The notes under the pieces: model-generated
Told to the model about the DNA's origin: nothing
Database searches by the model: none
The model's input: the letters and a program-made list of their open reading frames with translations, nothing else
Made by a program: the position numbers and the translations under genes
Shown: one piece after another, positions 5,056-62,193 of the stretch
Layout of the letters: every line of letters starts with the position of its first letter
Position numbering within the stretch: position 1 is the first letter of the stretch
Source of the DNA: an uncultured Alphaproteobacteria bacterium
GTDB taxonomy: Bacteria > Pseudomonadota > Alphaproteobacteria > Rhizobiales > Xanthobacteraceae
Direction of reading: 5' to 3'
Length of the DNA: 64,000 nucleotides
Assembly (NCBI GenBank): GCA_963841025.1
Contig: CAWJBG010000001.1
Location: 300,765-364,764 of the forward strand

Positions 5056-5799
5056 TCATACGTGCTGGCCGCCGTTGATGTGGATCTCGGCGCCGTTGAC
5101 GTAGGACGACGTATCCGTGCACAGCACGTAGATGATCTTTGCCACTTCGTCGGGTGTGCCCAGCCGGTGCATCGGGATCATCTCGACGATCTTTTCGGTG
5201 CCGGGAGAGAGCATCGCGGTGTCGATCTCGCCCGGTGCTATGGCGTTGACGCGAACGCCGACCGCGCCGAAGTCGTGCGCCATCTCGCGCGTTAATGCCG
5301 CCAGCGCCGCCTTCGACGTGGCATAGGCAGCTCCGGCGAACGGATGCACGCGCGAGCCGGCGATCGAGGTGACATTGACGACAGAGCCTTTCGCGGCCTT
5401 TAGCTCATCGAGCAGTCCGCGCGCCAGCATGATCGGAGCAAAGAAATTCACCTGGAAAACATGGTGCCAGTCGTCGCGCGAGGTGCCGATCGAGCCGAGC
5501 CGCATGCCGCCGTCAGCCTTGGGCGAAATCGCTGCGTTATTGACGAGCGCATGCAGTTCACCGTTGATCCGCCGCTTGATCTCGGCGATGGCTTCTTCGG
5601 TGTTCTCCGGCTCCGACAGATCGACCTGAATATGATCCTCGGGTCCCGCTTCCCACGGACAATTCTCTGGGAACGGATGGCGCGAGCAGGTAATGACGCG
5701 CCAGCCGGCCGCAGAAAAGCGCTTGACGGTGGCGTGGCCGATGCCGCGGCTCGCTCCGGTGAGAAGGAGAGTTCGGCGCGGCTGATTACTATTTGGCAC
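5056..5799 (-). CDS. SDR family oxidoreductase
   Basis: TGASRGIGHA cofactor motif, NNAA, and YATSKAAL catalytic Y-x3-K. 247 aa. Confidence 0.85.
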   Translation of the reverse strand: MPNSNQPRRTLLLTGASRGIGHATVKRFSAAGWRVITCSRHPFPENCPWEAGPEDHIQVDLSEPENTEEAIAEIKRRINGELHALVNNAAISPKADGGMRLGSIGTSRDDWHHVFQVNFFAPIMLARGLLDELKAAKGSVVNVTSIAGSRVHPFAGAAYATSKAALAALTREMAHDFGAVGVRVNAIAPGEIDTAMLSPGTEKIVEMIPMHRLGTPDEVAKIIYVLCTDTSSYVNGAEIHINGGQHV

Positions 5800-22333: not shown

Positions 22334-23326
22334 TTAGGGTTGATAGGCCCGGTTGGGAATGGTGAAGCCGCAGCTTGATCCGTCGGTGACCGCGACTTCA
22401 TCTTCCCACGGCAGCCGGTATTGGCCGGCCACCAGATCGCGCATGTAAGTGTAAGGGCAATCCTGCGCCCCGCCTTTGACCGCGACATAACCGCGATGGC
22501 CGAACTGGTAGATATTGTTCTCGACGCCCCAGAGGCGGCGCGCCTCGTCGGCGAGCTTCGGCCGCACTTCTGCAGTGATGATCTCGTCGGGTGCGCCATT
22601 CCCGGTCACGATCGGCGTGCCGTCGAAATTGACGATCATGCCTTCGCCCATGGAATTGAACACGCCGTCGGTGCCGGCCATGCAGACGTTTGCGGTGTAC
22701 ATCAGGTTTGAGAACGCGTTGCTCTGATTGCTGACGTGCCAGGCCTGCCGGATCGGCGCGGTGTAACCGGCCGTGCGCAGCATGATGTTGGCGCCTTTGT
22801 AAGCGCACTCGCGCGCCATCTCCGGGAACATGCCATCGTGGCAGATGATCAGCGCGACCTTGCTGCCGTTCGGCCCGTCGCAAACCGGAATGCCGAGATT
22901 GCCCGGCTCCCACGGTTCGACCGGCACCCACGGATGCATCTTGCGATAATAGAGTTTCAGTTCGCCGCGATCGTCGATGATGATGCCGGAATTGTAGGGA
23001 TTGCCGTCGGGATTGTACTCCATGATGGAAAAACAGCCCCAGATGTGATTGTCGGCACACGCCGTCTTGAAGCTTTCCACTTCCGGGCCGTCGAGCCGCG
23101 ACATCAGGTCCGCGTTGGTATCCATCGAGAGGCCGTGCAGCGAATATTCGGGAAATACGACGAGGTCCATCGTCGACATATTTTTGCGCGCCTTCTGCAC
23201 CATCGCGCAAATCCGCTTGGTCTGCACCGCAAGATCGCTCTTGGTCGCGATCGTCGGCAATTGCAGCTGAACGAGCCCAATCACCACGCCGTCGGGAGCT
23301 TTGTTCAATCCACCGAGCCCACTCAT
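22334..23326 (-). CDS. amiF: formamidase (nitrilase-superfamily amidase, AmiF-like)
   Basis: FPEYS, YRKMHPWVP and the catalytic C in LIICHDGMFPE. NNIYQFGHRGYVA and LPWED match my memory of Helicobacter AmiF better than AmiE. AGGAG RBS before the ATG at 23326. Confidence 0.8.
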   Translation of the reverse strand: MSGLGGLNKAPDGVVIGLVQLQLPTIATKSDLAVQTKRICAMVQKARKNMSTMDLVVFPEYSLHGLSMDTNADLMSRLDGPEVESFKTACADNHIWGCFSIMEYNPDGNPYNSGIIIDDRGELKLYYRKMHPWVPVEPWEPGNLGIPVCDGPNGSKVALIICHDGMFPEMARECAYKGANIMLRTAGYTAPIRQAWHVSNQSNAFSNLMYTANVCMAGTDGVFNSMGEGMIVNFDGTPIVTGNGAPDEIITAEVRPKLADEARRLWGVENNIYQFGHRGYVAVKGGAQDCPYTYMRDLVAGQYRLPWEDEVAVTDGSSCGFTIPNRAYQP

Positions 23327-23421
23327 CCACGTCTCCTTTTTCGTCTCGCTGTTCCCGGCCGGCCAGGGCATTTAAGCTGTTCCGTCACCGAAAGGCCACG
23401 ACGGAAATGTGCGAGGCATAA

Positions 23422-24349
23422 TTGGACGAAGAATTTGACGTAGCGATTGCCGGAGCGGGCGTTGCCGGTTTGACGGCAGCGCTTACCGCTGCGCGTCTCG
23501 GGTGCAAGACGCTCGTCCTGTCAGGGGACGTTCTCGGCGGACTTCTTATCAGCATCGAAAAGGTTGAGGGATTTCCCGGGTTCGTCGAAGGGGTTCCGGG
23601 TTACGACCTGTGCCCGATGATCCAGGAGCAGGCGGTCGCCGCGGGGGCACAATTCACTTCCGGCGGTCTGGAAGGTTTCGATCGGCAAAATGGCGGCTGG
23701 CTGCTCGAGAGTGGCGACACAAAAGTGCGCGCGCGGGCCGTCATTCTGGCAATCGGCGCGACACTCAAGGAGCTCGGCGTTCCCGGCGAGGAACGCCTCC
23801 GCGGAAAGGGCGTCAGTCATTGTGCCAGCTGCGACGCGCCGCTCGTTCGCAACAAGACCGTCGCGGTTGTCGGTGGCGGCGATTTCGGCCTTACAGGAAG
23901 CTTTGACGCTGGCGGCATTTGCCGAACGTGTGATCATTCTGCAGCACGGCGCCGATTTGACCGCTCAGGCGGTTTATCGCGATCGTGTCGCCAGTCATCC
24001 GAAGATCGAGATTCGTTTTGATACTGTTGTCGAGGAAGTTCTCGGTGACGGCAAAGTGGGCGGCGCTCGCATCCGCGACACCAACGGCAATGCGTCCACC
24101 GATCTGGAACTGGCGGCGCTGTTCGTCTACATTGGCCTGGAGCCGGCGACCACGTTAGTAAAAGCCCACGTCAAGCTCGATCCGTCGGGTCGCATTCCGG
24201 TCGACGCGCGGATGCGGACCAAACTGCCGGGTGTGTTTGCAGCGGGTATCGTGCGATCGGGCTCGGTAGGCCGTGCCGTTGCCTCTGCCGGCGACGGGAC
24301 GATTGCAGCGATCGCGGCGGAGCAGTATCTAGCGGACGGCAACTGGTAG
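23422..24349 (+). pseudogene. thioredoxin-reductase-like FAD/NAD(P) disulfide oxidoreductase, frame broken at T-run 23883-23885
   Basis: ORF 23422..24021 gives DVAIAGAGVAGLTAAL..GKGVSHCASCD..VAVVGGGD. ORF 23690..24349 continues SALQEALTLA..VIILQHG..PGVFAAGIV. Deleting one T of GATTTCGG restores GGGDSALQEAL. Confidence 0.65.
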
Positions 24350-24375
24350 TCTGTGCGCGGGAATGGAAATCGGAG

Positions 24376-26013
24376 GTGCGGATGAGCGAACTCCTGACGG
24401 TCCACGATCCTCGCGGTTACCCGCCTAAGGTCGCGGGCAAACGGCTTGCGTCTCGCCTGCAGAGTCTCGACGGCAAGATCGTCTATCTGGTCGATTGTCT
24501 GTTCGACAATTCCGCCGCCTTCATGGACCAGCTGCAGCGCTGGTTCGGCCAGCATCTGCCGGCGGTCGTCACCCGTATCATCAGGCCGTACGAGAGCTGG
24601 GAAGACGATCCCGACATGCGCGCCAAAATCGTCGCCGACGGCGACGCGGCGATATTGGGTGTCGGTCTTTGAAGCACCTGTAGCCCGACGGTCGTCGGGT
24701 TGACAATGGCGCTGGAAGAAAGCGGCGTGCCGAGCGTCGCAGTCCATACCCATGCCTTCGCACGGTTGGCCCGCGCCAGCGCACTCGCCAACGGCATGCC
24801 GCGTACGCGGCAGGCGTTTGTGCCGCAGCCGGTGGTCGATCGAACGCCCGAACAGTTACGCGCCTACATCGAGGGCACCGATCCGATCTCCAAACGGCCG
24901 TTCGTGCAGGAGGTGATCGAAGGGCTGACCGGTCCCCTTACCGACGATGATCTCAAAGGTGTTTCGTTCGACCGCTCCACGCCGCGGCTGCTCGCTCCGG
25001 ACACGGAGGACAATCTCCAGGCCTTGTTTATCGAAAACCACTGGACGGATTTCCTGCCGGTGACGCTGCCGACCGAGGAGCGCGTCGCAAAGATGCTCAA
25101 AGGCACCAGCTTGCCGCGCGACAAGGTGGTCGGACGGATGCGCCCGACGCGCTTCCGCGAATTTTGGGAATTCACCGTCGAGAAGGTTGCCGTCAACGCG
25201 GTGATGGCCGGTGCGCGGCCGGAGTATTTGCCGGTGATCCTGGCGATGGCCGCAAGCGGGCAAACCGCGCGATCGAGCAGCACGACATCGTTTGCGACGA
25301 TCTCCGTCGTCAATGGCCCGATCCGGAACGAGATCGGCATGGATGCCGGCATCGGGGTGCTCGGTCCCTATAACCACGCCAACGCCACCATCGGCCGTGC
25401 TTTCGGATTGCTGTCGCAAAATCTGCAAGGCGGTTCGGTGCCAGGCGAATCTTATATGGGCTCGCTAGGCAATTGGTACGCCTACACGGCCGCGTTCCCC
25501 GAAAACGAAGAACGCAGTCCCTGGCAACCGCTGCATGTGCAAAAAGGCTTTAAGCCGACTGATTTAACCGTCAGCGTCTTTTTCGGCGGCTGGTATGCGC
25601 AGAGCGGATATGGCCCGCGCGAAACCTGGAAGGAACGGTTCATCCGCTGCCTCGCGGCGACCGAACACTACAGTCCGCCGCTCTTGGTGCTCGATCCGAT
25701 CGCCGCGCGCGGTTTTGTCGAACTCGGCTTCGACACCAAGGAGAAACTGATCGCGTGGTGCGCCGAAAACGCCCGCTTGCCGGCGCGGCAATACTGGGAC
25801 GATCAATGGATTCAGACGTTGATCCGACCGCTTGCGGTAGCCGGCGTCGAGCCTTACGCGACGCGGCTCAAGGCCGATCCTGACGAACTGATCCAGATGT
25901 ACCTGCCGCAGGAGATCAACATCGTGGTTGCGGGCGGCGAAACCCAGGGCGCGTGGAAGATGTTCGGAGGCTCGCTGCGCAACGCGACCATTTCCGTTGA
26001 CGCCTGGCGGTAG
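24376..26013 (+). CDS. candidate selenoprotein: GrdB/UGSC-like N-terminal domain with in-frame UGA (Sec) at 24670-24672, fused to an uncharacterised ~350-aa C-terminal domain
   Basis: Tracked ORFs 24376..24672 and 24700..26013 share one frame, and the TGA is the only stop between them. The context is ..DAAILGVGL-U-STCSPTVVGLTMALEESGVPSVAVHTHAF.. (U-x-x-C). A SECIS-like hairpin starts 9 nt after the TGA. Confidence 0.6.
24681..24702 (+). promoter_or_regulatory. SECIS-like stem-loop downstream of in-frame UGA
   Basis: CCCGAC (24684-24689) pairs with GUCGGG (24694-24699) around a GGUC loop. The stem is extendable by G.U, A-U and U.G pairs (24681-83 with 24700-02). The position relative to the UGA is similar to the E. 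coli fdhF element. Confidence 0.5.
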
Positions 26014-55172: not shown

Positions 55173-55247
55173 TGGGGCGTAGCCAAGCGGTAAGGCAGCG
55201 GATTTTGATTCCGCCATTCGAAGGTTCGATTCCTTCCGCCCCAGCCA
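55173..55247 (+). tRNA. tRNA-Gln (anticodon UUG), CCA encoded
   Basis: Manual cloverleaf: acceptor TGGGGCG/CGCCCCA, D arm GCC-AAGCGGTAA-GGC, anticodon arm GCGGA-TTTTGAT-TCCGC, T arm GAAGG-TTCGATT-CCTTC. Close to E. coli tRNA-Gln from memory. Confidence 0.95.
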
Positions 55248-55919: not shown

Positions 55920-58417
55920 ATGCCGCTTGCTTTGACCATATTTGGCGTATCGACCGCCGGCAGTCAGCCCGTGTTCTGCTACGGGTTTCTACGGCCCGTT
56001 CGGGGCGCGGGCGATTACCAGCCGCCAAATCTTCCCAGGGGCCTCACGGCAAACCGCATCACGCGGACGCCTCTGTCTGGATTTCAGGAAGTTGAAGTAG
56101 TCGCGTGGGATTGCATTTTCCCGACCGGGCTAGAAGAGACTGTGCTGACTCAGTTTTCAGCAGGAAAGCTGACTATACCCGATGAGTGTCCTATAGAACC
56201 GGGCCGTACAGTCGAAGGCGACCTTTGCCCGTTATCATTTATCTTCGACTACCCCACTTGGGTTCGAACCTCTGGCACCGGAATTCTTCAACTCCAAAGC
56301 CTCATTGTCCGAGATGGTATTGATCCAGTCTTTCAAGCCCTGACGCCGGCTGTTGGAGCGGGCGATACTCCTGCCGCCTTGCTGAAGCTAATCGAGGTGC
56401 TGGCCAAACAATCCGGTTTAGAAGAAATCTTTTTGCTCAGGCGTCCAATTGGATTGATTGATCATTTTTGGCGGGAGGACCCTAACTGTTCAACCTCGGC
56501 GCCGCTGTTGAATATCGTACCTGACAAACCCGATTTCCGAACCAAAGTACCCATGCTCAAATGTTATGTGCGCCGTTACGCGTGTAGCGAAGAGCGAGCG
56601 TTTCGATTGCACGTGACAGTTAAGAACTTTGATGAAGTGCTCAGGGATTATCTTGTCGACTTCCCCGCCGGTGCGCCAGAAGTCGCCGTTGATACAAGCG
56701 TCCACATCACCGATGTGTCAGTCGAGGCCTTTAACGAAGACGGAACGATCGCACAAAAGATCATCGCTGTGTTTACTCAAGCAATGGATTTCGGAATCAA
56801 AGCTCTAGGCCGCGCCGACCTTCTTCCAGCAGTTTTCAGTAGTACGCCTGAAACTCAAGACCTGGAAAAACGCGCACGGTTGAGCACCGTTGCGTTCAAG
56901 GGCCCTGCTGCGGGAATGCGGTCCGGCGCGTTCGATGTGCTCCGGCAAAATAGGGAGCGTGTGGATGCCCTACTTGGACCTCAGAAACCATCTGCCGAAT
57001 GTTTTTGGTTCGGCAGAAGCCCTGAAAGTCAAATCGATGTGATCCGCTGGATCAAGACGAAGCTTGAGCAGCCGAATGTCCGCAATGCATATCTAATCGA
57101 TCCCTTTCTCGGAACTGACGCGTTGCGCAGAGTGATTTGCGTCAAGGCAACGAAAACATTGATCTGACACTTCTAGTGTCTCCCGGTCGCGTCAACCCGG
57201 ACGCCGAGACGGTTGATATGCCAGCAACAGAAAATCATATCCAAAAGCTCATTGGCGTAGCGAATGAATGGTCTGAGCAACTGTGTGGCAACATATCAAT
57301 TATTCATATCAAGCGAGGGGAGGATGCGCGTCAGGCGTTTCATGATCGTTATCTGTGCCTGGTCGACCAGGACGGGGTGCCGACGGTATATTTGCTGTCC
57401 AATAGTCTCAGCAAAGCAGCCGGGGATTGGCCCTTTGCCATCAGTGAATTGAGCCGCGTAACTGCTTGGCAGGCTTACCGCTACATCGAAGGCCTTATCG
57501 CAGGAAAGGATGGCGAAAGAGAACTTCAGCCTGTTGAGATTTGGAGGCGTAAGCAATCGACAGCCCCTATTGAAGTAAAGACCGAACAGCCAGATCAAAG
57601 CACGGACCGGCCCCAGTGGGTTCCGTGGGCTGAGTCCTTTCTGAGAAGACTGCAGACGGTCGCCTACCGTAATACCGGGAACCGCGACGAGATGGACGCC
57701 ATAGTTGATCAATGCCTTGTTGAGTGGCCGACTGGCGTCGATGCGACGGTGCTCGCGGATAACTTATTTCGGATAATTAGCTACAGAGCGCAATACGTTG
57801 CGCGCGGCGCAGCCCGCTTCTTATCAGGAAGCGATGCGCAGCAGGCCGTTGGTAGGCGACTGGAAGACTTGCAGCTGGATCATTTTTTTGGCGAGCTTGA
57901 AAAGGGCGATAGAACTCACGGCGTTACGTGGCAATTTCTGGATGGCAGAGACGAGCTGATTGCTTTCCTGGGTCGTGCAATTTCTCGGCTCAGCACTCCA
58001 ACTTATTTCGTTAGAGATCGAATTAACCCGTTAGTCCATTCGTCCATGCAAACGCTGGAGTTTCAACGAGGCGAAACCGATGCCGCGTTTAACGCAGTTC
58101 AAATCGCAACTTGCCTCATAAGCCTTGGACTAGAAGTCGCTGTGGTATCCGACGTCGAATTGAGATTTCGACAAGGTGTCGCTAGTGACTATGTACATTG
58201 GGCCGGACGACTTGTGCGTTCTGACGCAGCGCGTATTCGGTTGGCGTTCGGAGCACACGCGTCCGACTTGTGGATGAATGATTTCACGTTTCTCGCGCGC
58301 CAGATATTGCAGGCCGGGTCGATATTGGGGGAGCCTGTGCAAACCTCGATTTTCCGCGTTCTCAGCGATTCCTTGGTGCCATTGGAATTTAAGACACTGC
58401 TCGGTCAGGCCGGGTAA
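55920..58417 (+). pseudogene. large (~830 aa) uncharacterised protein with central IDPF...HDRY PLD/MIT_C-like module, frame broken at T-run ~57134-57136
   Basis: ORF 55857..57167 (likely ATG at 55920) ends ..NAYLIDPFLGTDALRRVI. ORF 57137..58417 continues LRQGNENIDLTLLVSPG..IIHIKRGEDARQAFHDRYLCLVDQDGVPTVYLLSNSLSKAAG. The second frame opens only at about 57119. Adding one T (GTGATTTTGCG) joins them. Confidence 0.55.
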
Positions 58418-58442
58418 TGAAACGACTGCGCGTCGCCGTTTC

Positions 58443-58470
58443 GGAGGTTCGAATCCTCCCCCCAACCAGC
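58443..58470 (+). other. tRNA 3'-end-like remnant (T arm plus acceptor strand, no CCA)
   Basis: GGAGG-TTCGAAT-CCTCC followed by CCCCAAC. No matching 5' half upstream. Lies between the two cargo modules of the islet. Confidence 0.4.
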
Positions 58471-58541
58471 GGTGAGTGCCCGCTGACCTCTAAGTAGTTG
58501 ATATTCAACCTATTGTATTACCAAAGATTTCCATTGAATAA

Positions 58542-58578
58542 TGTCGGGTTTTTGCTATATTAAGTGTCGGGTTTTTGC
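58542..58578. promoter_or_regulatory. two direct 14-bp repeats TGTCGGGTTTTTGC spaced 23 bp, just upstream of abiEi-like gene (candidate operator)
   Basis: Read directly at 58542-58555 and 58565-58578. The second copy ends 12 nt before the ATG at 58591 and abuts the AAGGAGAGG RBS. Confidence 0.45.
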
Positions 58579-58590
58579 AAGGAGAGGCCC

Positions 58591-59007
58591 ATGCCCCGCC
58601 GAAAGACATTGCGGCAAAGAATCGAGGAGCGGATTTCCCGCCGGTCCGGAGACTCGGTATTCCTCACGCGCGAATTCACTAATCTCGGCGGCGAGGACCA
58701 AGTGCTGCGCGCCCTGCGCACCCTTGTGCAGGACGGGCATCTGCTGCGCCTCGGCTACGGAGTTTATGGGCGCGCCGTCCCTTCGAGCTTATCAGGACGT
58801 CCGATGCTCTACAGCCCCAACGGCTTCATCGGCGCTGCGCGCCAGGCTCTCGACAAGCTCGGGGTCGAATGGGAGCCGACCGAAGCCGAGCGCGCTTACA
58901 ACGAAGGCCGCTCGACGCAAGTGCCGGTCAATCCGGTCGTGCGCGTAAGGGGGCGGTTCAACCGCCACCTCAGTTACGGCAATTCGGAGCTTGTCGTTGA
59001 GCGATAG
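58591..59007 (+). CDS. AbiEi-family (type IV toxin-antitoxin) antitoxin-like wHTH protein
   Basis: N-terminal pattern RQRIEERISRRSGDSVFLTREF....VLRALRTLVQDGHLLRLGYGVYGRA is typical of AbiEi/DUF6088 antitoxins. Overlaps the downstream toxin gene. Confidence 0.6.
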   Translation: MPRRKTLRQRIEERISRRSGDSVFLTREFTNLGGEDQVLRALRTLVQDGHLLRLGYGVYGRAVPSSLSGRPMLYSPNGFIGAARQALDKLGVEWEPTEAERAYNEGRSTQVPVNPVVRVRGRFNRHLSYGNSELVVER

Positions 59008-59926
59008 GCCGACGCTCCAGCAGCTGCTCGAAATACAGCAGCACTTCGAATTGCCGAGTACCGCGCTCGTCGAAAAGGACTGGCACGTCATCAAGGCGCT
59101 CGCCGCGATCATGGCAGTCGACACTAAGCCATTCCGGCTGGTCTTCGGCGGCGGCACCGCGCTCGGGCGCGCCTATGGACTCATCAAGCGCATGTCCGAG
59201 GACATCGATCTGAGGATCGTCGGCGTTGAGCGGCCGAGCCGAGGTCAGTTGCGCGTGCTGCGGCAAAAAATTATGAAGGCTTTGCTGGACGCCGGCTTTA
59301 AGTTCGATCCCGAGAACCCCGAGCATCGCAGGACCATGTATGAGGGGCGCTACACCGTCTATCACCTTCCTTACGAAGCCGTCGCAGAAGGCACCGGAGC
59401 GCTTCGCCCGGAAATTAAGATCGAGACTTCCGCGTTTCCGTTAAGGCGCGATTCCGTCCAACGCCCGGTCTCGTCCTTCATCGCCGAGGGTAACGGCAAG
59501 CCGCCCGAGATTCCTTCGATCGACTGCACCTCAATTCTTGAAACCACAGCGGACAAGCTGGTTGGCTTGACCCGCCGTGCCGGCGCGGAACTCGCGGGCT
59601 TGCGCAAAGAGCGCGATACGACATTAGTTCGGCACATTCATGATCTTCATGCCGTTCGCAGCCAATACGACCCCGCAGAGGTCGCCAAGCTCGCTCGCGA
59701 AATCATGCCCGACGAAGCGGCGCAACGAGCCGACGATTTTCCTGCCTACAAGGCGGACCCACTGGGCGAAACGCTGAAAGCGATCGAAGGCATCGCGGCG
59801 AGCGCCGACTACAAGAGGGATTACGAAACCTTCCGCCGCGACATGGTCTATGGCGACGGCGTTGATTTCGATACTGCGATCAAGACGCTCAAGGAGCTAG
59901 GAGAGCAATTGCGCCGAGCGGCGTGA
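58991..59926 (+). CDS. nucleotidyltransferase AbiEii/AbiGii toxin family protein
   Basis: DUF1814-type motifs (VFGGGTALGRAY, SEDIDLRI, EIKIETS). The start codon is uncertain (TTG 58991 or 58997). Confidence 0.8.
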   Translation: MSLSDRPTLQQLLEIQQHFELPSTALVEKDWHVIKALAAIMAVDTKPFRLVFGGGTALGRAYGLIKRMSEDIDLRIVGVERPSRGQLRVLRQKIMKALLDAGFKFDPENPEHRRTMYEGRYTVYHLPYEAVAEGTGALRPEIKIETSAFPLRRDSVQRPVSSFIAEGNGKPPEIPSIDCTSILETTADKLVGLTRRAGAELAGLRKERDTTLVRHIHDLHAVRSQYDPAEVAKLAREIMPDEAAQRADDFPAYKADPLGETLKAIEGIAASADYKRDYETFRRDMVYGDGVDFDTAIKTLKELGEQLRRAA

Positions 59927-60107
59927 CTTTACCCAATTTGGGGTCTTTTTACCCAAATCGGGGCCGAACATGAGTTAGCACAAGAGACGTGCGGCGGATT
60001 TCTGATTCCACCGTGCGCCGCTAAGCCGTTATTTCGCAATACAAAAAATTACCGCGACAGAGATGCGACAACGTGGCAAAAAACTGAATTGGATCAATGT
60101 GGTTTGT

Positions 60108-60156
60108 GGGATTTTGATTCCGCCATTCGAAGGTTCGATTCCTTCCGCCCCAGCCA
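60108..60156. repeat. attR-like copy of 49-bp direct repeat (orphan tRNA-Gln 3' fragment)
   Basis: Identical to 55200-55248. No tRNA 5' half precedes it. Confidence 0.9.
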
Positions 60157-60355
60157 CTGAAAAATAATTGCTGCGCTGGTTTTTAACGAGCGCGGCACGC
60201 TGATCTATCACTCACAGGGATAATTCCGCGGCGACTTTGTTCAAGCCGCGAGACGTCTGAAATGACGCAACGTCGCAAAAGCTGCTTGGTTGAAGATAAT
60301 CACCAAACGGAGGAGCGAAACCTGAGCTTTTTGTTTGGCGGGCGGCTGCCGCCGA

Positions 60356-60640
60356 TCACTGAACGGTTACCTTCGAGTATCCTCGCGCGGCGGGAAGGTG
60401 ATCAACTAAAGCCGGCGTCTTGCGCTCGGCCTCGTCTCCGATCTGCAATGAAAACAACCTTTTGCCGTCGGCGTTCCGCACCTCAATCGTCCAACCATGC
60501 CAATCGTGAGCCAGTTTGTTCGACAACAGCTGTCCGAGCGTTTCTGCAAACTCGACGGCGCCTTGAGGGCTGAGGAAATCGTCCCCTTTGTAGTCGAGAA
60601 GCGATTGATCCTTCGTGGTATAATCGAAGAAGTAGCGCAT
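60356..60640 (-). CDS. small hypothetical protein (DUF6894-like)
   Basis: MRYFFDYTTKDQSLLDYKGDDFLSPQGAVEFAETLGQLL..GWTIEVRNADGKRLFSL resembles the MRYFFH..D..G...D..A......A........W.IEV.D..G family. Assignment is from memory. Confidence 0.5.
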   Translation of the reverse strand: MRYFFDYTTKDQSLLDYKGDDFLSPQGAVEFAETLGQLLSNKLAHDWHGWTIEVRNADGKRLFSLQIGDEAERKTPALVDHLPAARGYSKVTVQ

Positions 60641-60992
60641 GAAACCGCACCAGCCGATCGTTTGTGACCAGCGCGATTGTAATAAGATTTTGCTATGGTG
60701 CTGTTAAATCGACCAATAAACATTTAGGCCAATTTCAAAGCGCTTAGGCTTAGAGGCAGTATCCGACGTTGCCGGTTGTTCGCAGAGCGTCGGAAGCATC
60801 GGCCTTCTTAAGGATTAAGCAAACGAGCTAAGGCCGGGCGCACGCCGTCGCGGCTTCGGGGCCGACGTCGTTCCACTCGCGCGTATGGTAAAAACTCGGT
60901 GTGCTGCCTTGCCCTTCGGGAACCGGCTGGGCAAGACTGCACTTCCAATTGCCCGACCGTCCACTCGACCATTGAGAAAGCTGAAACCGGAT

Positions 60993-62193
60993 ATGCCGAT
61001 CGATCGCCTTCGGGTTGCCGTGGTTGGAGGAGGCATCGGTGGCCTCGCGGCCGCTAATGCGCTCGTTCGACGAGGCGCCGACGTCACAGTATTGGAACAG
61101 GCGGCGGTGCTGGGCGAGGTCGGCGCCGGCATTATGATCTATCCGAATAGTCTGCGGCAGCTGGAACGCATGGGTCTTCGCGAAGCGATGGCGCGGGTGG
61201 GCGCGAAGGTCGGCGACGGGCTCGGAATACTGCAGGATGGACGGCACGACCGTCGGCAAAATCCTCACAACCGACTCGAACGGCTGGAACGGGGTCTATG
61301 GGACGCATCGGGCCGACTTGCTGCGTGTGCTCGCCGACGCGATTCCGCAAGCCGCCATACGCACAGGTCACCGCTGTATCGCATTTGAGCAAGATGAGGC
61401 TGGCGCACACCTGAAGTTCGCGAATGGCGCGACATTGGACGTCGACGTCGTGATCGCGGCCGATGGCATCCAGTCGACTTTGCAGAAATACGTCACCGAG
61501 CCCTCGCTGCCGGAATATTCAGGCTCACGCGCCTATCGAGGCTTGATCGCGACCGACAAGCTTCCCTCGTGGCGAAAGGAGGCTCACCAGGTCTGGATGG
61601 GCGACGGCAAACATTTCATGGTGTTTCCAGTTCGCAGCGGCCGGCTTCTCAATTATGTCGGCTTCGTGCCGACCAAGAGCGAGACGATCAAGTCATGGTC
61701 GGCGATTGGCGATCGCGACGAGCTTGCGGCGTCGTTCGCAGGATGGGATCCGCGCGTGGTCGGTCTGATTGAAAAAGTGGAGAGCTGCTTCTGGTGGGGG
61801 TTGTACGATCGGAAACCTCTGGCGTCGTGGACCAACGGGCGCCTCGCACTTCTTGGCGACGCCGCCCATGCGATGCTGCCGCATGTCGGTCAGGGCGCCA
61901 ATCAGGCCGTCGAGGATGGCGTTGCTCTTGCGGTTTTCCTTGAGGGGCGGAGTTCTGCTGAGGTCGCCGATGCATTGCGGCGCTACGAGGCTTTCCGTCG
62001 CGAGCGCACCGGTATCGTGCAGGCCGAAGCCCGGCGGAACGGTCTTCGTTACGATTCGCAGTACGAAAATCTGGAGCAGCGCGATCGGGAAGTCGCGAAT
62101 GCCGCGGTGTTCCGCAAATGGCTTTACGACTATGACGTCGAGCAAGCCGCGGTGGCTTATATGGCGGAAAGCCGGGCGTCCGTGCCCGCCTGA
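60993..62193 (+). pseudogene. FAD-dependent aromatic-ring monooxygenase (salicylate hydroxylase-like), frame broken near 61221-61225
   Basis: ORF 60885..61388 gives RVAVVGGGIGGLAAANAL..GAGIMIYPNS. ORF 61237..62193, with its open frame upstream, continues (S)EYCRMDGTTVGKI..HRADLL..GDAAHAMLPHVGQGANQAVEDG. One extra base explains the break. Confidence 0.75.

What the first reader, a model, noticed from the sequence alone, without database searches (positions are those of the whole stretch)
24376..26013. In-frame UGA in a U-x-x-C motif with a SECIS-like hairpin: probable unannotated selenoprotein fusion
The two tracked ORFs (24376..24672 and 24700..26013) share a frame, and the TGA at 24670-24672 is the only stop between them.

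The TGA falls in ..DGDAAILGVGL-[UGA]-STC-SPTVVGLTMALEESGVPSVAVHTHAFARLA..GMPRTRQAFVPQP... This layout is a redox U/C-x-x-C followed by E..G(I/V)P.V and then a ..P.P.. segment. From memory it is the arrangement found in GrdB/PrdB-type reductase selenoproteins and the 'UGSC family (seleno)protein'.

A hairpin (6 G-C-rich base pairs, GGUC loop, extendable to 9 bp) starts 9 nt after the UGA, which is where a bacterial SECIS would sit.

Here the roughly 170-aa selenoprotein-like module is fused to a ~350-aa domain I cannot name (..NHWTDFLPVTLPTEERV..VNAVMAGARPEYLPVILAMAASG..). A standard gene caller would split this locus into a 98-aa and a ~435-aa 'hypothetical'.
Basis: partly seen in the sequence, partly recalled or inferred. 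Interest (0 to 1): 0.8.

Follow-up and report, generated by a model that had tools for sequence, protein, structure and literature searches.

The report
Split selenoprotein gene, long UGSC form
The two "hypothetical" ORFs are one 543-codon gene for a long-form UGSC-family selenoprotein, whose in-frame UGA is read as selenocysteine with the help of a hairpin just downstream; the family is already known, so this is a gene-model correction plus some new context, not a new kind of system.

Summary
Window 24382..26013 (+) is one gene with a single in-frame TGA (24670-24672).

- **Domain span:** Pfam PF24696 "UGSC family" matches residues 7-162, straight across the TGA at residue 97.
- **Homologues:** In 80 homologous loci from at least eight phyla, the aligned codon is TGA at 79 of 93 sites and TGC/TGT at 13. 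Full-length Cys homologues (545-569 aa) are colinear. The Cys three residues downstream (U-x-x-C) is kept in 79 of 80 Sec forms.
- **Hairpin:** A 9-bp hairpin with a GGUC loop (24681-24702) meets all four published bacterial SECIS criteria. It covaries among Sec forms and is degraded in Cys forms.
- **Sec machinery:** In several relatives, selD-selA-selB-tRNA-Sec lie directly beside the orthologue. None lie in this 64-kb window.
- **Partner gene:** A thioredoxin-reductase-like gene is the immediate same-strand neighbour in 20 of 81 loci, including this one, where it carries a 1-nt frameshift.
- **C-terminal domain:** The ~340-aa C-terminal domain has no Pfam family and no significant PDB fold match, despite a confident model.

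The UGSC selenoprotein family, and UGSC fusions, were already published, and RefSeq already names long forms. This is a new member of a known kind.

The parts
23422..24349 (+). Thioredoxin-reductase-like flavoprotein gene (FAD/NAD(P) disulfide oxidoreductase, redox motif CASC). It ends 32 nt before the selenoprotein start and is the likely operon partner.
   Evidence: After removing one T, the 308-aa reading matches Pyr_redox_2 at 5e-40. It scores 283 bits on TIGR01292 against a cut-off of 343, so it is a paralogue rather than housekeeping TrxB. Intact 307-310-aa orthologues sit in the same position in L081-L083 and L086-L088.
23883..23885 (+). T-run (GATTTCGG) where the TrxR-like reading frame shifts by +1. 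This is either a sequencing error or an inactivating mutation.
   Evidence: ORFs 23422..24021 and 23690..24349 are in different frames. Together they read ...VAVVGGGD|SALQEALTLA... only if one T is dropped.
24372..24376 (+). Shine-Dalgarno-like GGAGG, 5 nt upstream of the ATG.
   Evidence: Read directly from the sequence.
24382..26013 (+). Single coding sequence of the long-form UGSC-family selenoprotein (543 aa plus TAG stop).
   Evidence: There is one in-frame TGA only. Colinear full-length Cys homologues exist. dN/dS is 0.15-0.47 on both sides of the TGA against 10 orthologues.
24400..24867 (+). UGSC domain (residues 7-162), a Rossmann/flavodoxin-like alpha/beta domain that carries the redox centre.
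   Evidence: PF24696 scores 87.9 bits. NF041046 scores 65 bits, below its cut-off of 125. The AF2 model of Cys homologue P0125 shows a beta-alpha-beta order. Foldseek gives only generic alpha/beta hits.
24670..24672 (+). UGA read as selenocysteine (residue 97).
   Evidence: It aligns with TGA at 79 homologous sites and with TGC/TGT at 13, out of 93. It aligns with the first Cys of CxxC in full-length homologues.
24679..24681 (+). TGT, the partner Cys of the U-S-T-C motif (residue 100).
   Evidence: Cys at this column in 79 of 80 Sec forms, with a variable third codon base. It is invariant in alignment A5.
24681..24702 (+). SECIS hairpin: 9-bp stem (24681-24689 with 24694-24702) and apical loop GGUC (24690-24693). 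There are 17 nt between the UGA codon and the loop.
   Evidence: -13.9 kcal/mol, z = -3.46. It meets the four criteria of the published bacterial SECIS model. Covariation score is 0.36 against 0.16 in shuffles (0 of 500 reach it) and at most 0.17 for slid controls. Core pairs form in 65-94% of Sec forms; in Cys forms five of the six core pairs form in 8-54%.
24997..26010 (+). C-terminal domain of about 340 aa (residues about 206-543) with no known family or fold. Conserved motifs include WTD(G/F)LP..LPTE, TVEKVAVNAVMAG, VNGPIR, ANATIGRA, ENEE.SPW and a C-terminal (I/V)D.WR. It has no conserved Cys.
   Evidence: No Pfam or NCBIfam hit. The AF2 model has pLDDT 92 and pTM 0.90. Foldseek against PDB gives nothing at E <= 1e-3. 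A PDB sequence profile search gives nothing at E <= 1.

Best explanation
Window 24382..26013 is one gene for a 543-residue, two-domain selenoprotein of the UGSC family (long form).

**Recoding.** During translation, the UGA at codon 97 is read as selenocysteine by the SelB/tRNA-Sec machinery. The machinery is recruited by a 9-bp hairpin with a GGUC loop that lies in the coding sequence 17 nt downstream. Recoding is inferred from comparative evidence, not shown biochemically.

**Redox centre.** The Sec and the Cys three residues later (U-S-T-C) sit between a beta-strand and the N-terminus of a helix in a Rossmann-like alpha/beta domain. That domain is remotely related to the Sec-bearing core of GrdB/PrdB-type reductase selenoproteins. 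The pair would cycle between selenol/thiol and selenenylsulfide.

**Inferred steps.** The co-transcribed thioredoxin-reductase-like flavoprotein re-reduces this centre with NAD(P)H. The conserved C-terminal domain of unknown fold binds the still unknown substrate that the Sec attacks or reduces.

**Annotation.** Standard gene callers stop at the UGA and report a ~96-aa piece and a ~435-aa piece.
For: **Shown**
- One Pfam domain spans the TGA.
- The column is TGA at 79 sites, TGC/TGT at 13 and other at 2, across 80 genomes of Alpha-, Beta- and Gammaproteobacteria, Acidobacteriota, Chloroflexota, Actinomycetota, Thermodesulfobacteriota, Methylomirabilota and others.
- Full-length Cys homologues are colinear, with CxxC at the U column.
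- U-x-x-C is kept in 79 of 80 Sec forms, with synonymous variation in the Cys codon.
- Both halves are under purifying selection.
- TGA is otherwise the ordinary stop codon here, in 11 of 20 domain-supported genes.
- The hairpin meets the loop, stem, G-position, spacing and energy criteria of the bacterial SECIS model.
- The hairpin covaries.
- Cys forms encoding the same peptide (e.g. CAPAV) use codons that do not pair. Mean MFE is -13.6 against -8.7 kcal/mol, p = 2.7e-4.
- selD, selA, selB and tRNA-Sec lie directly beside the orthologue in L005, L008 and L001. Partial sets lie beside it in L006, L007, L013 and L086.

**Supporting the inferred steps**
- A TrxR-like gene is the immediate same-strand neighbour in 20 of 81 loci, 11 upstream and 9 downstream. 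It lies within 4 kb in 27 of 81.
- In the model of P0125, CxxC lies between strand 100-106 and helix 111-125.
- hhalign against GOS PrdB/GrdB-like selenoproteins gives probability 91-93%, with controls at 19 or below.
Against: - No selA, selB, selC or selD lies in the 64-kb window. Sec competence of this particular genome is therefore unproven.
- The partner TrxR-like gene carries a +1 frameshift here. This could mean the module is decaying in this strain.
- The covariation test used 58 of 79 distinct sequences, chosen for a common hairpin register, and the hairpin lies in conserved coding sequence.
- The only Rfam SECIS hit is far below threshold (12.8 bits against 70, E = 6).
- The protein misses the NCBIfam equivalog cut-off.
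- The substrate and the role of the C-terminal domain are unknown.
- There is no biochemical evidence for Se incorporation.
Confidence: 0.88

Rival explanations
1. Decaying locus. The gene family is a true selenoprotein family, but in this genome the module is no longer functional. Either Sec machinery has been lost or the partner is inactivated, so the UGA now terminates translation.
For: The TrxR-like partner has a +1 frameshift at 23883-23885. No sel genes or tRNA-Sec lie in the window.
Against: Apart from the UGA, the 543-codon frame is intact. The hairpin is intact. The closest relatives (86-97% identity, more than 25 distinct clusters) keep the same split and intact downstream ORFs. dN/dS is below 0.5 on both halves. 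A single extra T in a homopolymer is a typical assembly error, and many related MAGs are long-read assemblies (inference). Only about 1% of a genome is visible in the window.
Confidence: 0.06
2. Two separate genes. TGA is a genuine stop, and the downstream ORF restarts at TTG 24700 or ATG 24706.
For: Gene callers produce exactly this model in all relatives. In-frame TTG and ATG codons exist 28-34 nt after the TGA.
Against: One Pfam domain would be cut in half. Cys homologues are single colinear proteins. The nine codons between the TGA and the restart are conserved as protein, with an almost invariant Cys. There is no GGAG-type ribosome-binding site before 24700 or 24706. The restart codon would lie inside the hairpin.
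Confidence: 0.03
3. Read-through without selenium. The UGA is suppressed by a near-cognate tRNA (Trp or Cys) or by another recoding mechanism, giving a full-length protein that lacks Sec.
For: Nothing specific. It is merely not excluded without chemistry.
Against: The TGA alternates only with Cys codons, never with Trp. A SECIS-type hairpin is present in TGA forms and largely absent from Cys forms. Sec machinery genes are physically linked to orthologues.
Confidence: 0.03

Closest known systems
UGSC-containing / UGSC family (seleno)protein (Pfam PF24696, NCBIfam NF041046). Described in the Sargasso Sea and GOS selenoproteome papers (PMC2398784) and listed in the 2022 and 2026 reviews (PMC9312934, PMC13188914).
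   Same: It has the same domain, and Sec is the first residue of a U-x-x-C motif with rarer Cys homologues. The function is still unknown. RefSeq already names long forms "UGSC family (seleno)protein": the 560-aa Cys homologue WP_358488424.1, and the truncated 435/436-aa Sec pieces HWM47887.1 and MGA8225101.1. The GOS paper reported a "UGSC/Unknown_1" fusion.
   Different: The motif is U-S-T-C, not U-G-S-C. The protein has 543 aa in two domains, against a profile of about 147 positions. It scores 65 bits against the equivalog cut-off of 125. Whether the C-terminal domain is the 2008 "Unknown_1" could not be checked. That figure is held only as an image and the dataset is cut. The paper says its fused domains as a rule carry a conserved Cys, and this domain has none.
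GrdB / PrdB selenoproteins of glycine and D-proline reductase (Pfam PF07355 GRDB)
   Same: The local layout is the same: beta-strand, U-x-x-C, helix...E..G(I/V)P(T/S)V strand...PR..(F/V)(V/P). hhalign of the UGSC domain against GOS PrdB/GrdB-like sequences gives probability 91-93% over 71 columns, with Sec on Sec. Re-reduction by a thioredoxin-reductase-type system is part of the glycine reductase scheme (established knowledge). A TrxR-like gene is the conserved neighbour here.
   Different: There is no PF07355 hit at E <= 1. No GrdE/PrdA-type pyruvoyl proprotein, GrdA or GrdC/D was found among the neighbours examined. The hosts are mostly aerobic soil lineages, not Stickland fermenters. Only 4 of 18 of the comparison sequences themselves hit PF07355.
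Escherichia coli fdhF-type bacterial SECIS / consensus bSECIS model
   Same: It is a hairpin inside the coding sequence directly after the UGA, with a small apical loop starting with G followed by G/U. Spacing is 17 nt and energy is -13.9 kcal/mol. All of this lies within the published ranges.
   Different: There is no significant sequence or structure match to Rfam SECIS_2 (12.8 bits against 70). No bulged U is predicted. A subgroup, mostly from Acidobacteriota loci, uses a shifted hairpin with a GACC/GUC loop region.

Membership tests
Bacterial selenoprotein gene (UGA = Sec) | In-frame UGA at a column occupied by Cys in homologues, with protein conservation on both sides. | tested here: met
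   79 TGA, 13 TGC/TGT and 2 other sites in 80 genomes. CxxC in full-length homologues. dN/dS 0.15-0.47 on both halves.
Bacterial selenoprotein gene (UGA = Sec) | SECIS stem-loop directly downstream that fits the bacterial model: loop 3-9 nt, stem 4-16 bp, G in the first two loop positions, 16-37 nt spacing, MFE <= -7.5 kcal/mol. | tested here: met
   Loop GGUC, 9-bp stem, 17-nt spacing, -13.9 kcal/mol. Criteria taken from PMC13188914. Covariation. Loss of pairing in Cys forms.
Bacterial selenoprotein gene (UGA = Sec) | selA, selB, selC and selD present in the same genome. | not testable with these tools
   None lie in the 64-kb window, and the rest of the genome is not available. In relatives, selD-selA-selB-tRNA-Sec lie beside the orthologue.
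Bacterial selenoprotein gene (UGA = Sec) | Selenium actually incorporated in the protein. | not testable with these tools
   This needs 75Se labelling or mass spectrometry.
UGSC family (PF24696 / NF041046) | Pfam PF24696 gathering score. | tested here: met
   87.9 bits against 25, residues 7-162.
UGSC family (PF24696 / NF041046) | NCBIfam NF041046 equivalog cut-off. | tested here: not met
   65.1 bits against 125. The RefSeq-named long Cys homologue P0125 also scores only 51.6 bits.
UGSC family (PF24696 / NF041046) | U-G-S-C motif in a small protein of about 150 aa. | tested here: not met
   The motif is U-S-T-C and the protein has 543 aa. Only the general U-x-x-C is kept.
GrdB/PrdB (PF07355) | Pfam GRDB match. 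| tested here: not met
   No hit at E <= 1.
GrdB/PrdB (PF07355) | Homology of the Sec-bearing core. | tested here: met
   hhalign probability 91-93%, score 47.4, against 15.6 for the reversed profile and at most 18.8 for 30 column shuffles. Caveat: only 4 of 18 comparison sequences hit PF07355 themselves.
GrdB/PrdB (PF07355) | Operon with a pyruvoyl proprotein (GrdE/PrdA) and other reductase subunits. | tested here: not met
   The neighbours are formamidase, TauD, acyl-CoA dehydrogenase, TrxR-like and Zn-ADH. Recurrent neighbours elsewhere are TrxR-like genes and transporters.
Thioredoxin fold (proposed for UGSC in PMC2398784) | Structural similarity to thioredoxin-fold proteins. | tested here: inconclusive
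   Foldseek of the full-length Cys homologue model lists no thioredoxin-fold entry in the top 50. The best hits are SIS/flavodoxin-type alpha/beta domains, and none reaches E <= 1e-3.
Thioredoxin reductase (for the neighbouring gene) | TIGR01292 equivalog cut-off and a redox CxxC. | tested here: not met
   283 bits against 343, in both the repaired window gene and the intact orthologue in L081. CASC is present. It is a family member by Pfam Pyr_redox_2 but not the housekeeping enzyme by NCBI's criterion.

The most novel reading that the evidence does not exclude
The long-form UGSC protein and its dedicated TrxR-like flavoprotein form a previously uncharacterised NAD(P)H-driven, selenocysteine-dependent reductase. 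It would be distantly related to the glycine and proline reductase selenoproteins. Its C-terminal domain would be a new fold that holds an unknown small-molecule substrate. In some Alphaproteobacteria it travels as a self-contained cassette (UGSC-long, selD, trxR-like, selA, selB, tRNA-Sec), and it may be the main reason those soil bacteria keep the Sec trait.
Probability: 0.3. Interest if true: 0.6.

Novelty: new member of a known kind. Interest (0 to 1): 0.35.

Why it matters
**Practical value.** The locus should be annotated as one selenoprotein gene. The same correction applies to thousands of split models in public collections: 7,871 hits in one search, and the top 120 are all truncated pieces.

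**Scientific value.** UGSC is among the most abundant prokaryotic selenoprotein families and still has no function. Four features of the long form make its function experimentally approachable:
- a conserved TrxR-like partner;
- a remote link to GrdB/PrdB;
- a confidently modelled C-terminal domain with no solved relative;
- physical linkage to sel genes.

Cys forms exist in cultured strains, for example Pseudonocardia sp. NPDC046786 and Rhodobacterales bacterium HKCCE4037.

Tried and rejected
- I used the exact downstream part instead.
- **First frame error.** My first tblastn script used the wrong frame (start 24383) and gave meaningless codons. This was corrected.
- **Read-through alignment.** align_proteins refuses a translation that contains the stop codon.
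- **Fold and sequence searches.**
  - Foldseek of both models against PDB gave no hit at E <= 1e-3.
  - Weak hits to class I fumarate hydratase and to "Toblerone" cyclic amide hydrolases (TM 0.14-0.20) are not significant and were not used.
  - A PDB sequence profile search found nothing.
  - Pfam on 43 family members found nothing for the C-terminal domain.
- **Rfam.** The gathering search found only tRNA-Gln. The permissive search put SECIS_2 on top, but at 12.8 bits and E = 6, so it is not evidence.
- **GOS "Unknown_1".** I tried to identify it from the GOS paper. The figure panel is an image, and the stored dataset is cut before any UGSC section.
- **Stand-alone C-terminal domains.** P0181 proved to be another Sec form with a late start call, and P0236 sits at a contig end. 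The proteins of about 710-740 aa with two copies of the domain core and no Pfam hit were not pursued.
- **Source contig.** The window's own 435-aa ORF is not on record in the contig index.
- **Sec machinery.** E. coli SelA, SelB and SelD found nothing in the window, even at E = 10.
Full report
**Observation**

Reading 24376-26013 in one frame gives a single internal stop, TGA at 24670-24672, in ...DGDAAILGVGL*STCSPTVVGLTMALEESGVPSVAVHTHAF.... The two mechanical ORFs share a frame. The probable start is ATG 24382, five nucleotides after GGAGG (24372-24376). This gives 543 residues with the UGA at residue 97. TGA is otherwise the commonest ordinary stop in this window, in 11 of 20 genes whose ORFs are supported by domain hits. 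The genetic code is therefore not globally changed.

**One gene, not two**

- Pfam PF24696 "UGSC family" matches residues 7-162 of the read-through product (87.9 bits, cut-off 25). One domain therefore runs across the TGA.
- An exhaustive profile search with the exact downstream part found 4,163 representatives at E <= 0.001. These include full-length proteins of 545-569 aa whose match starts near residue 100.
- Aligned with the read-through product, these are colinear. P0124, P0125, P0126, P0152 and P0210 have the first Cys of a CxxC at the U column. Others have lost the motif.
- A scan of one genome per species found at least 588 related loci, and I kept the best 80. These come from Alpha-, Beta- and Gammaproteobacteria, Acidobacteriota, Chloroflexota, Actinomycetota, Thermodesulfobacteriota, Methylomirabilota/Rokubacteria, Latescibacterota, Verrucomicrobiota and Bacillota.
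- In my tblastn of those loci, the aligned codon is TGA at 79 sites, TGC at 11, TGT at 2 and something else at 2. Protein similarity continues on both sides.
- The Cys three residues after the UGA lies before any possible restart codon. It is present in 79 of 80 Sec forms, and its third codon base varies freely.
- Against ten orthologues, dN/dS is 0.15-0.47 for both the 96 codons upstream and the 446 codons downstream.

This is the standard Sec/Cys signature of a selenoprotein family. It rules out a chance nonsense mutation.

**The hairpin**

- Positions 24681-24689 pair with 24694-24702 (9 bp), around the loop GGUC at 24690-24693. The energy is -13.9 kcal/mol, z = -3.46.
- The published bacterial SECIS model asks for four things: a 3-9-nt apical loop on a 4-16-bp stem, a G in the first two loop positions (usually followed by G or U), 16-37 nt between the UGA and the loop, and MFE <= -7.5 kcal/mol (PMC13188914). 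All four are met, with a spacing of 17 nt.
- Among the Sec forms the loop is GGUC in 51 of 80. The six core pairs form in 65-94% of sequences. In the Cys forms, five of those six pairs form in only 8-54%, and one forms in all.
- Cys forms that encode the same peptide use synonymous codons that do not pair. Mean local MFE is -13.6 against -8.7 kcal/mol, p = 2.7e-4.
- On 58 Sec-form sequences sharing this hairpin register, the covariation score is 0.36 against 0.16 in shuffles (0 of 500 reach it). It is at most 0.17 when the 3' partners are slid. Pair types include GC/CG/AU at one pair and GC/AU/GU at another.
- Caveats: I left out 21 sequences, mostly from Acidobacteriota loci, whose hairpin is shifted (GACC/GUC loop region). 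The element also lies in conserved coding sequence.
- Rfam gives no significant match. SECIS_2 is the top permissive hit, but at 12.8 bits against a gathering score of 70.

**Sec machinery**

The window holds no selA, selB or selD and no tRNA-Sec. In relatives, the machinery is physically linked to the gene.
- **L005 and L008:** The order on one strand is UGSC-long, selD, TrxR-like, selA, selB, tRNA-Sec.
- **L001:** selA, selB and tRNA-Sec lie between two paralogues.
- **L006, L007, L013:** L006 has tRNA-Sec 1.8 kb away, L007 has selD next door, and L013 has selB.
- **L086:** In this 86%-identical relative, a SelD-type gene lies 2.6 kb upstream.

Four tRNA-Sec genes in 80 windows of about 20 kb is far more than a single-copy gene would give by chance (inference).

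**Neighbours**

- Directly upstream, ending 32 nt before the start, is a thioredoxin-reductase-like gene (23422..24349; Pyr_redox_2, motif CASC). Its frame shifts at a TTT run at 23883-23885. Removing one T restores a 308-aa protein.
- Intact orthologues of 307-310 aa sit in the same place in L081-L083 and L086-L088.
- Clustering all ORFs around the 81 loci shows a TrxR-like gene as the immediate same-strand neighbour in 20 loci. It lies upstream in 11 and downstream in 9. It lies within 4 kb in 27, across phyla and for both Sec and Cys forms.
- It scores 283 bits on TIGR01292 against a cut-off of 343, so it is a paralogue rather than housekeeping TrxB.
- Linkage in two gene orders argues for a functional pair.
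- Other recurrent neighbours are transport components (peptide-type ABC, TRAP, TctC) and dehydrogenases. None of these is universal.
- In the window, the other neighbours are a divergent formamidase, a TauD-type dioxygenase, an acyl-CoA dehydrogenase and a convergent Zn-dependent dehydrogenase. The wider window holds chromosomal housekeeping genes.

**Structure**

- The downstream 446 residues model with pLDDT 92 and pTM 0.90. The full-length Cys homologue P0125 models with pLDDT 91 and pTM 0.90.
- In P0125, the CxxC lies between strand 100-106 and helix 111-125. This is the usual setting of a redox-active pair.
- The N-terminal domain has a beta-alpha-beta order. It resembles only generic Rossmann/flavodoxin/SIS-type domains, with no thioredoxin-fold entry in the top 50.
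- The C-terminal domain (about residues 206-543) has no Pfam or NCBIfam family. It has no PDB sequence relative and no Foldseek match at E <= 1e-3.
- Its conserved residues are polar and acidic, with no conserved Cys. U-x-x-C is therefore the only evident redox centre.

**Relation to known families**

- The UGSC-containing selenoprotein family has been known since the marine metagenome selenoproteomes. The GOS paper counts 255 Sec and 21 Cys members, notes a "UGSC/Unknown_1" fusion, and gives no function (PMC2398784). The 2022 and 2026 reviews still list the family as uncharacterised.
- RefSeq names the 560-aa Cys homologue from Pseudonocardia "UGSC family (seleno)protein". It gives the same name to truncated 435/436-aa Sec pieces.
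- Among close relatives in the protein collection I found only the two pieces, never a read-through model.
- The window protein passes the Pfam threshold but not the NCBIfam equivalog cut-off (65 against 125 bits). Its motif is U-S-T-C, and it has two domains.
A profile of UGSC domains against GOS PrdB/GrdB-like selenoproteins gives hhalign probability 91-93% over 71 columns. Sec aligns on Sec, Cys on Cys, and the E..G(V/I)P(T/S)V and PR..FVP segments line up.
- The controls are far lower: 15.6 for the reversed profile and at most 18.8 for column-shuffled profiles, against 47.4 for the real comparison.
- It is not a Pfam GRDB member, and no GrdE/PrdA-type partner is nearby.

**Mechanism**

Supported by comparative evidence:
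- It is one gene.
- The UGA sits at a Sec/Cys column.
- A SECIS-type hairpin follows the UGA.
- Orthologues are linked to sel genes.
- A TrxR-like neighbour is conserved.

Inferred:
- SelB-dependent insertion of Sec at residue 97.
- A selenenylsulfide/selenol-thiol cycle of U97-C100.
- Re-reduction of that centre by the TrxR-like flavoprotein with NAD(P)H.
- Substrate binding by the C-terminal domain.

The substrate is unknown.

**Verdict**

This is a correct first-stage call. The object is a new member of a known selenoprotein family, and current gene callers split its gene model. The added points are of moderate interest and are testable: the TrxR-like partner, the sel cassette, the GrdB/PrdB link and the unassigned C-terminal fold.

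Noticed in passing
window 23883-23885 (within 23422..24349, +): The TrxR-like gene upstream of the selenoprotein gene is split into two frames by one extra T in GATTTCGG. Orthologues are intact at 307-310 aa. This is either a sequencing error or a real inactivation.
   Followed up: partly
L005:10001-17371 and L008:8700-16104 (also L007:3288-7111, cut by the contig end): A compact one-strand cassette: long UGSC selenoprotein, selD, TrxR-like, selA, selB, tRNA-Sec. It looks like a self-contained selenocysteine-utilisation unit in Alphaproteobacteria/Rhizobiaceae MAGs.
   Followed up: partly
L066 (sites at 5616, 10283, 15974); L054 (587, 2477, 4395); L001, L021, L033, L044-L047, L074: Many genomes carry two or three paralogues of the long UGSC gene within 10 kb. 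L054 mixes Cys and Sec copies. The family is expanded in several of the Acidobacteriota MAGs.
   Followed up: no
L086:8509-13182: In an 86%-identical relative, the gene is followed by an allophanate-hydrolase-type amidase (Amidase + AH_C). An AtzH-like gene, an amidase and an AtzG-like gene follow on the opposite strand. These are enzymes of the cyanuric acid/biuret pathway. Upstream lie SelD, TusA and an AhpC/Redoxin gene. The weak, non-significant Foldseek hits of the C-terminal domain included cyclic amide hydrolases. This is a single locus, so it is only a lead.
   Followed up: no
P0200, P0250, P0253, P0264 (709-741 aa): Proteins with two copies of the core of the C-terminal domain, no UGSC domain and no Pfam hit. 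The unnamed domain therefore also exists in another architecture.
   Followed up: no
L087:10605-12260 (-): A full-length 551-aa UGSC-domain paralogue, called as one uninterrupted ORF and so presumably without an in-frame TGA, lies about 2.3 kb from the Sec-form gene in a Xanthobacteraceae MAG.
   Followed up: no
P0276 (315 aa, ENA contig of 4.7 kb): A called ORF that joins the C-terminal two thirds of a TrxR-like protein to the N-terminal UGSC fragment (89% identical to the window's). It is probably an indel or a gene-calling artefact, and possibly a real fusion.
   Followed up: no
window 55173-55247 and 56000-62000: A tRNA-Gln(UUG) is followed by a stretch of lower G+C (0.53-0.58, against about 0.61 for the whole window). 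This could be an element integrated next to the tRNA.
   Followed up: no
window 22334-23371 (-): A divergently oriented formamidase (NF009803, 574 bits against a cut-off of 406) lies directly upstream of the TrxR-like/UGSC pair.
   Followed up: partly
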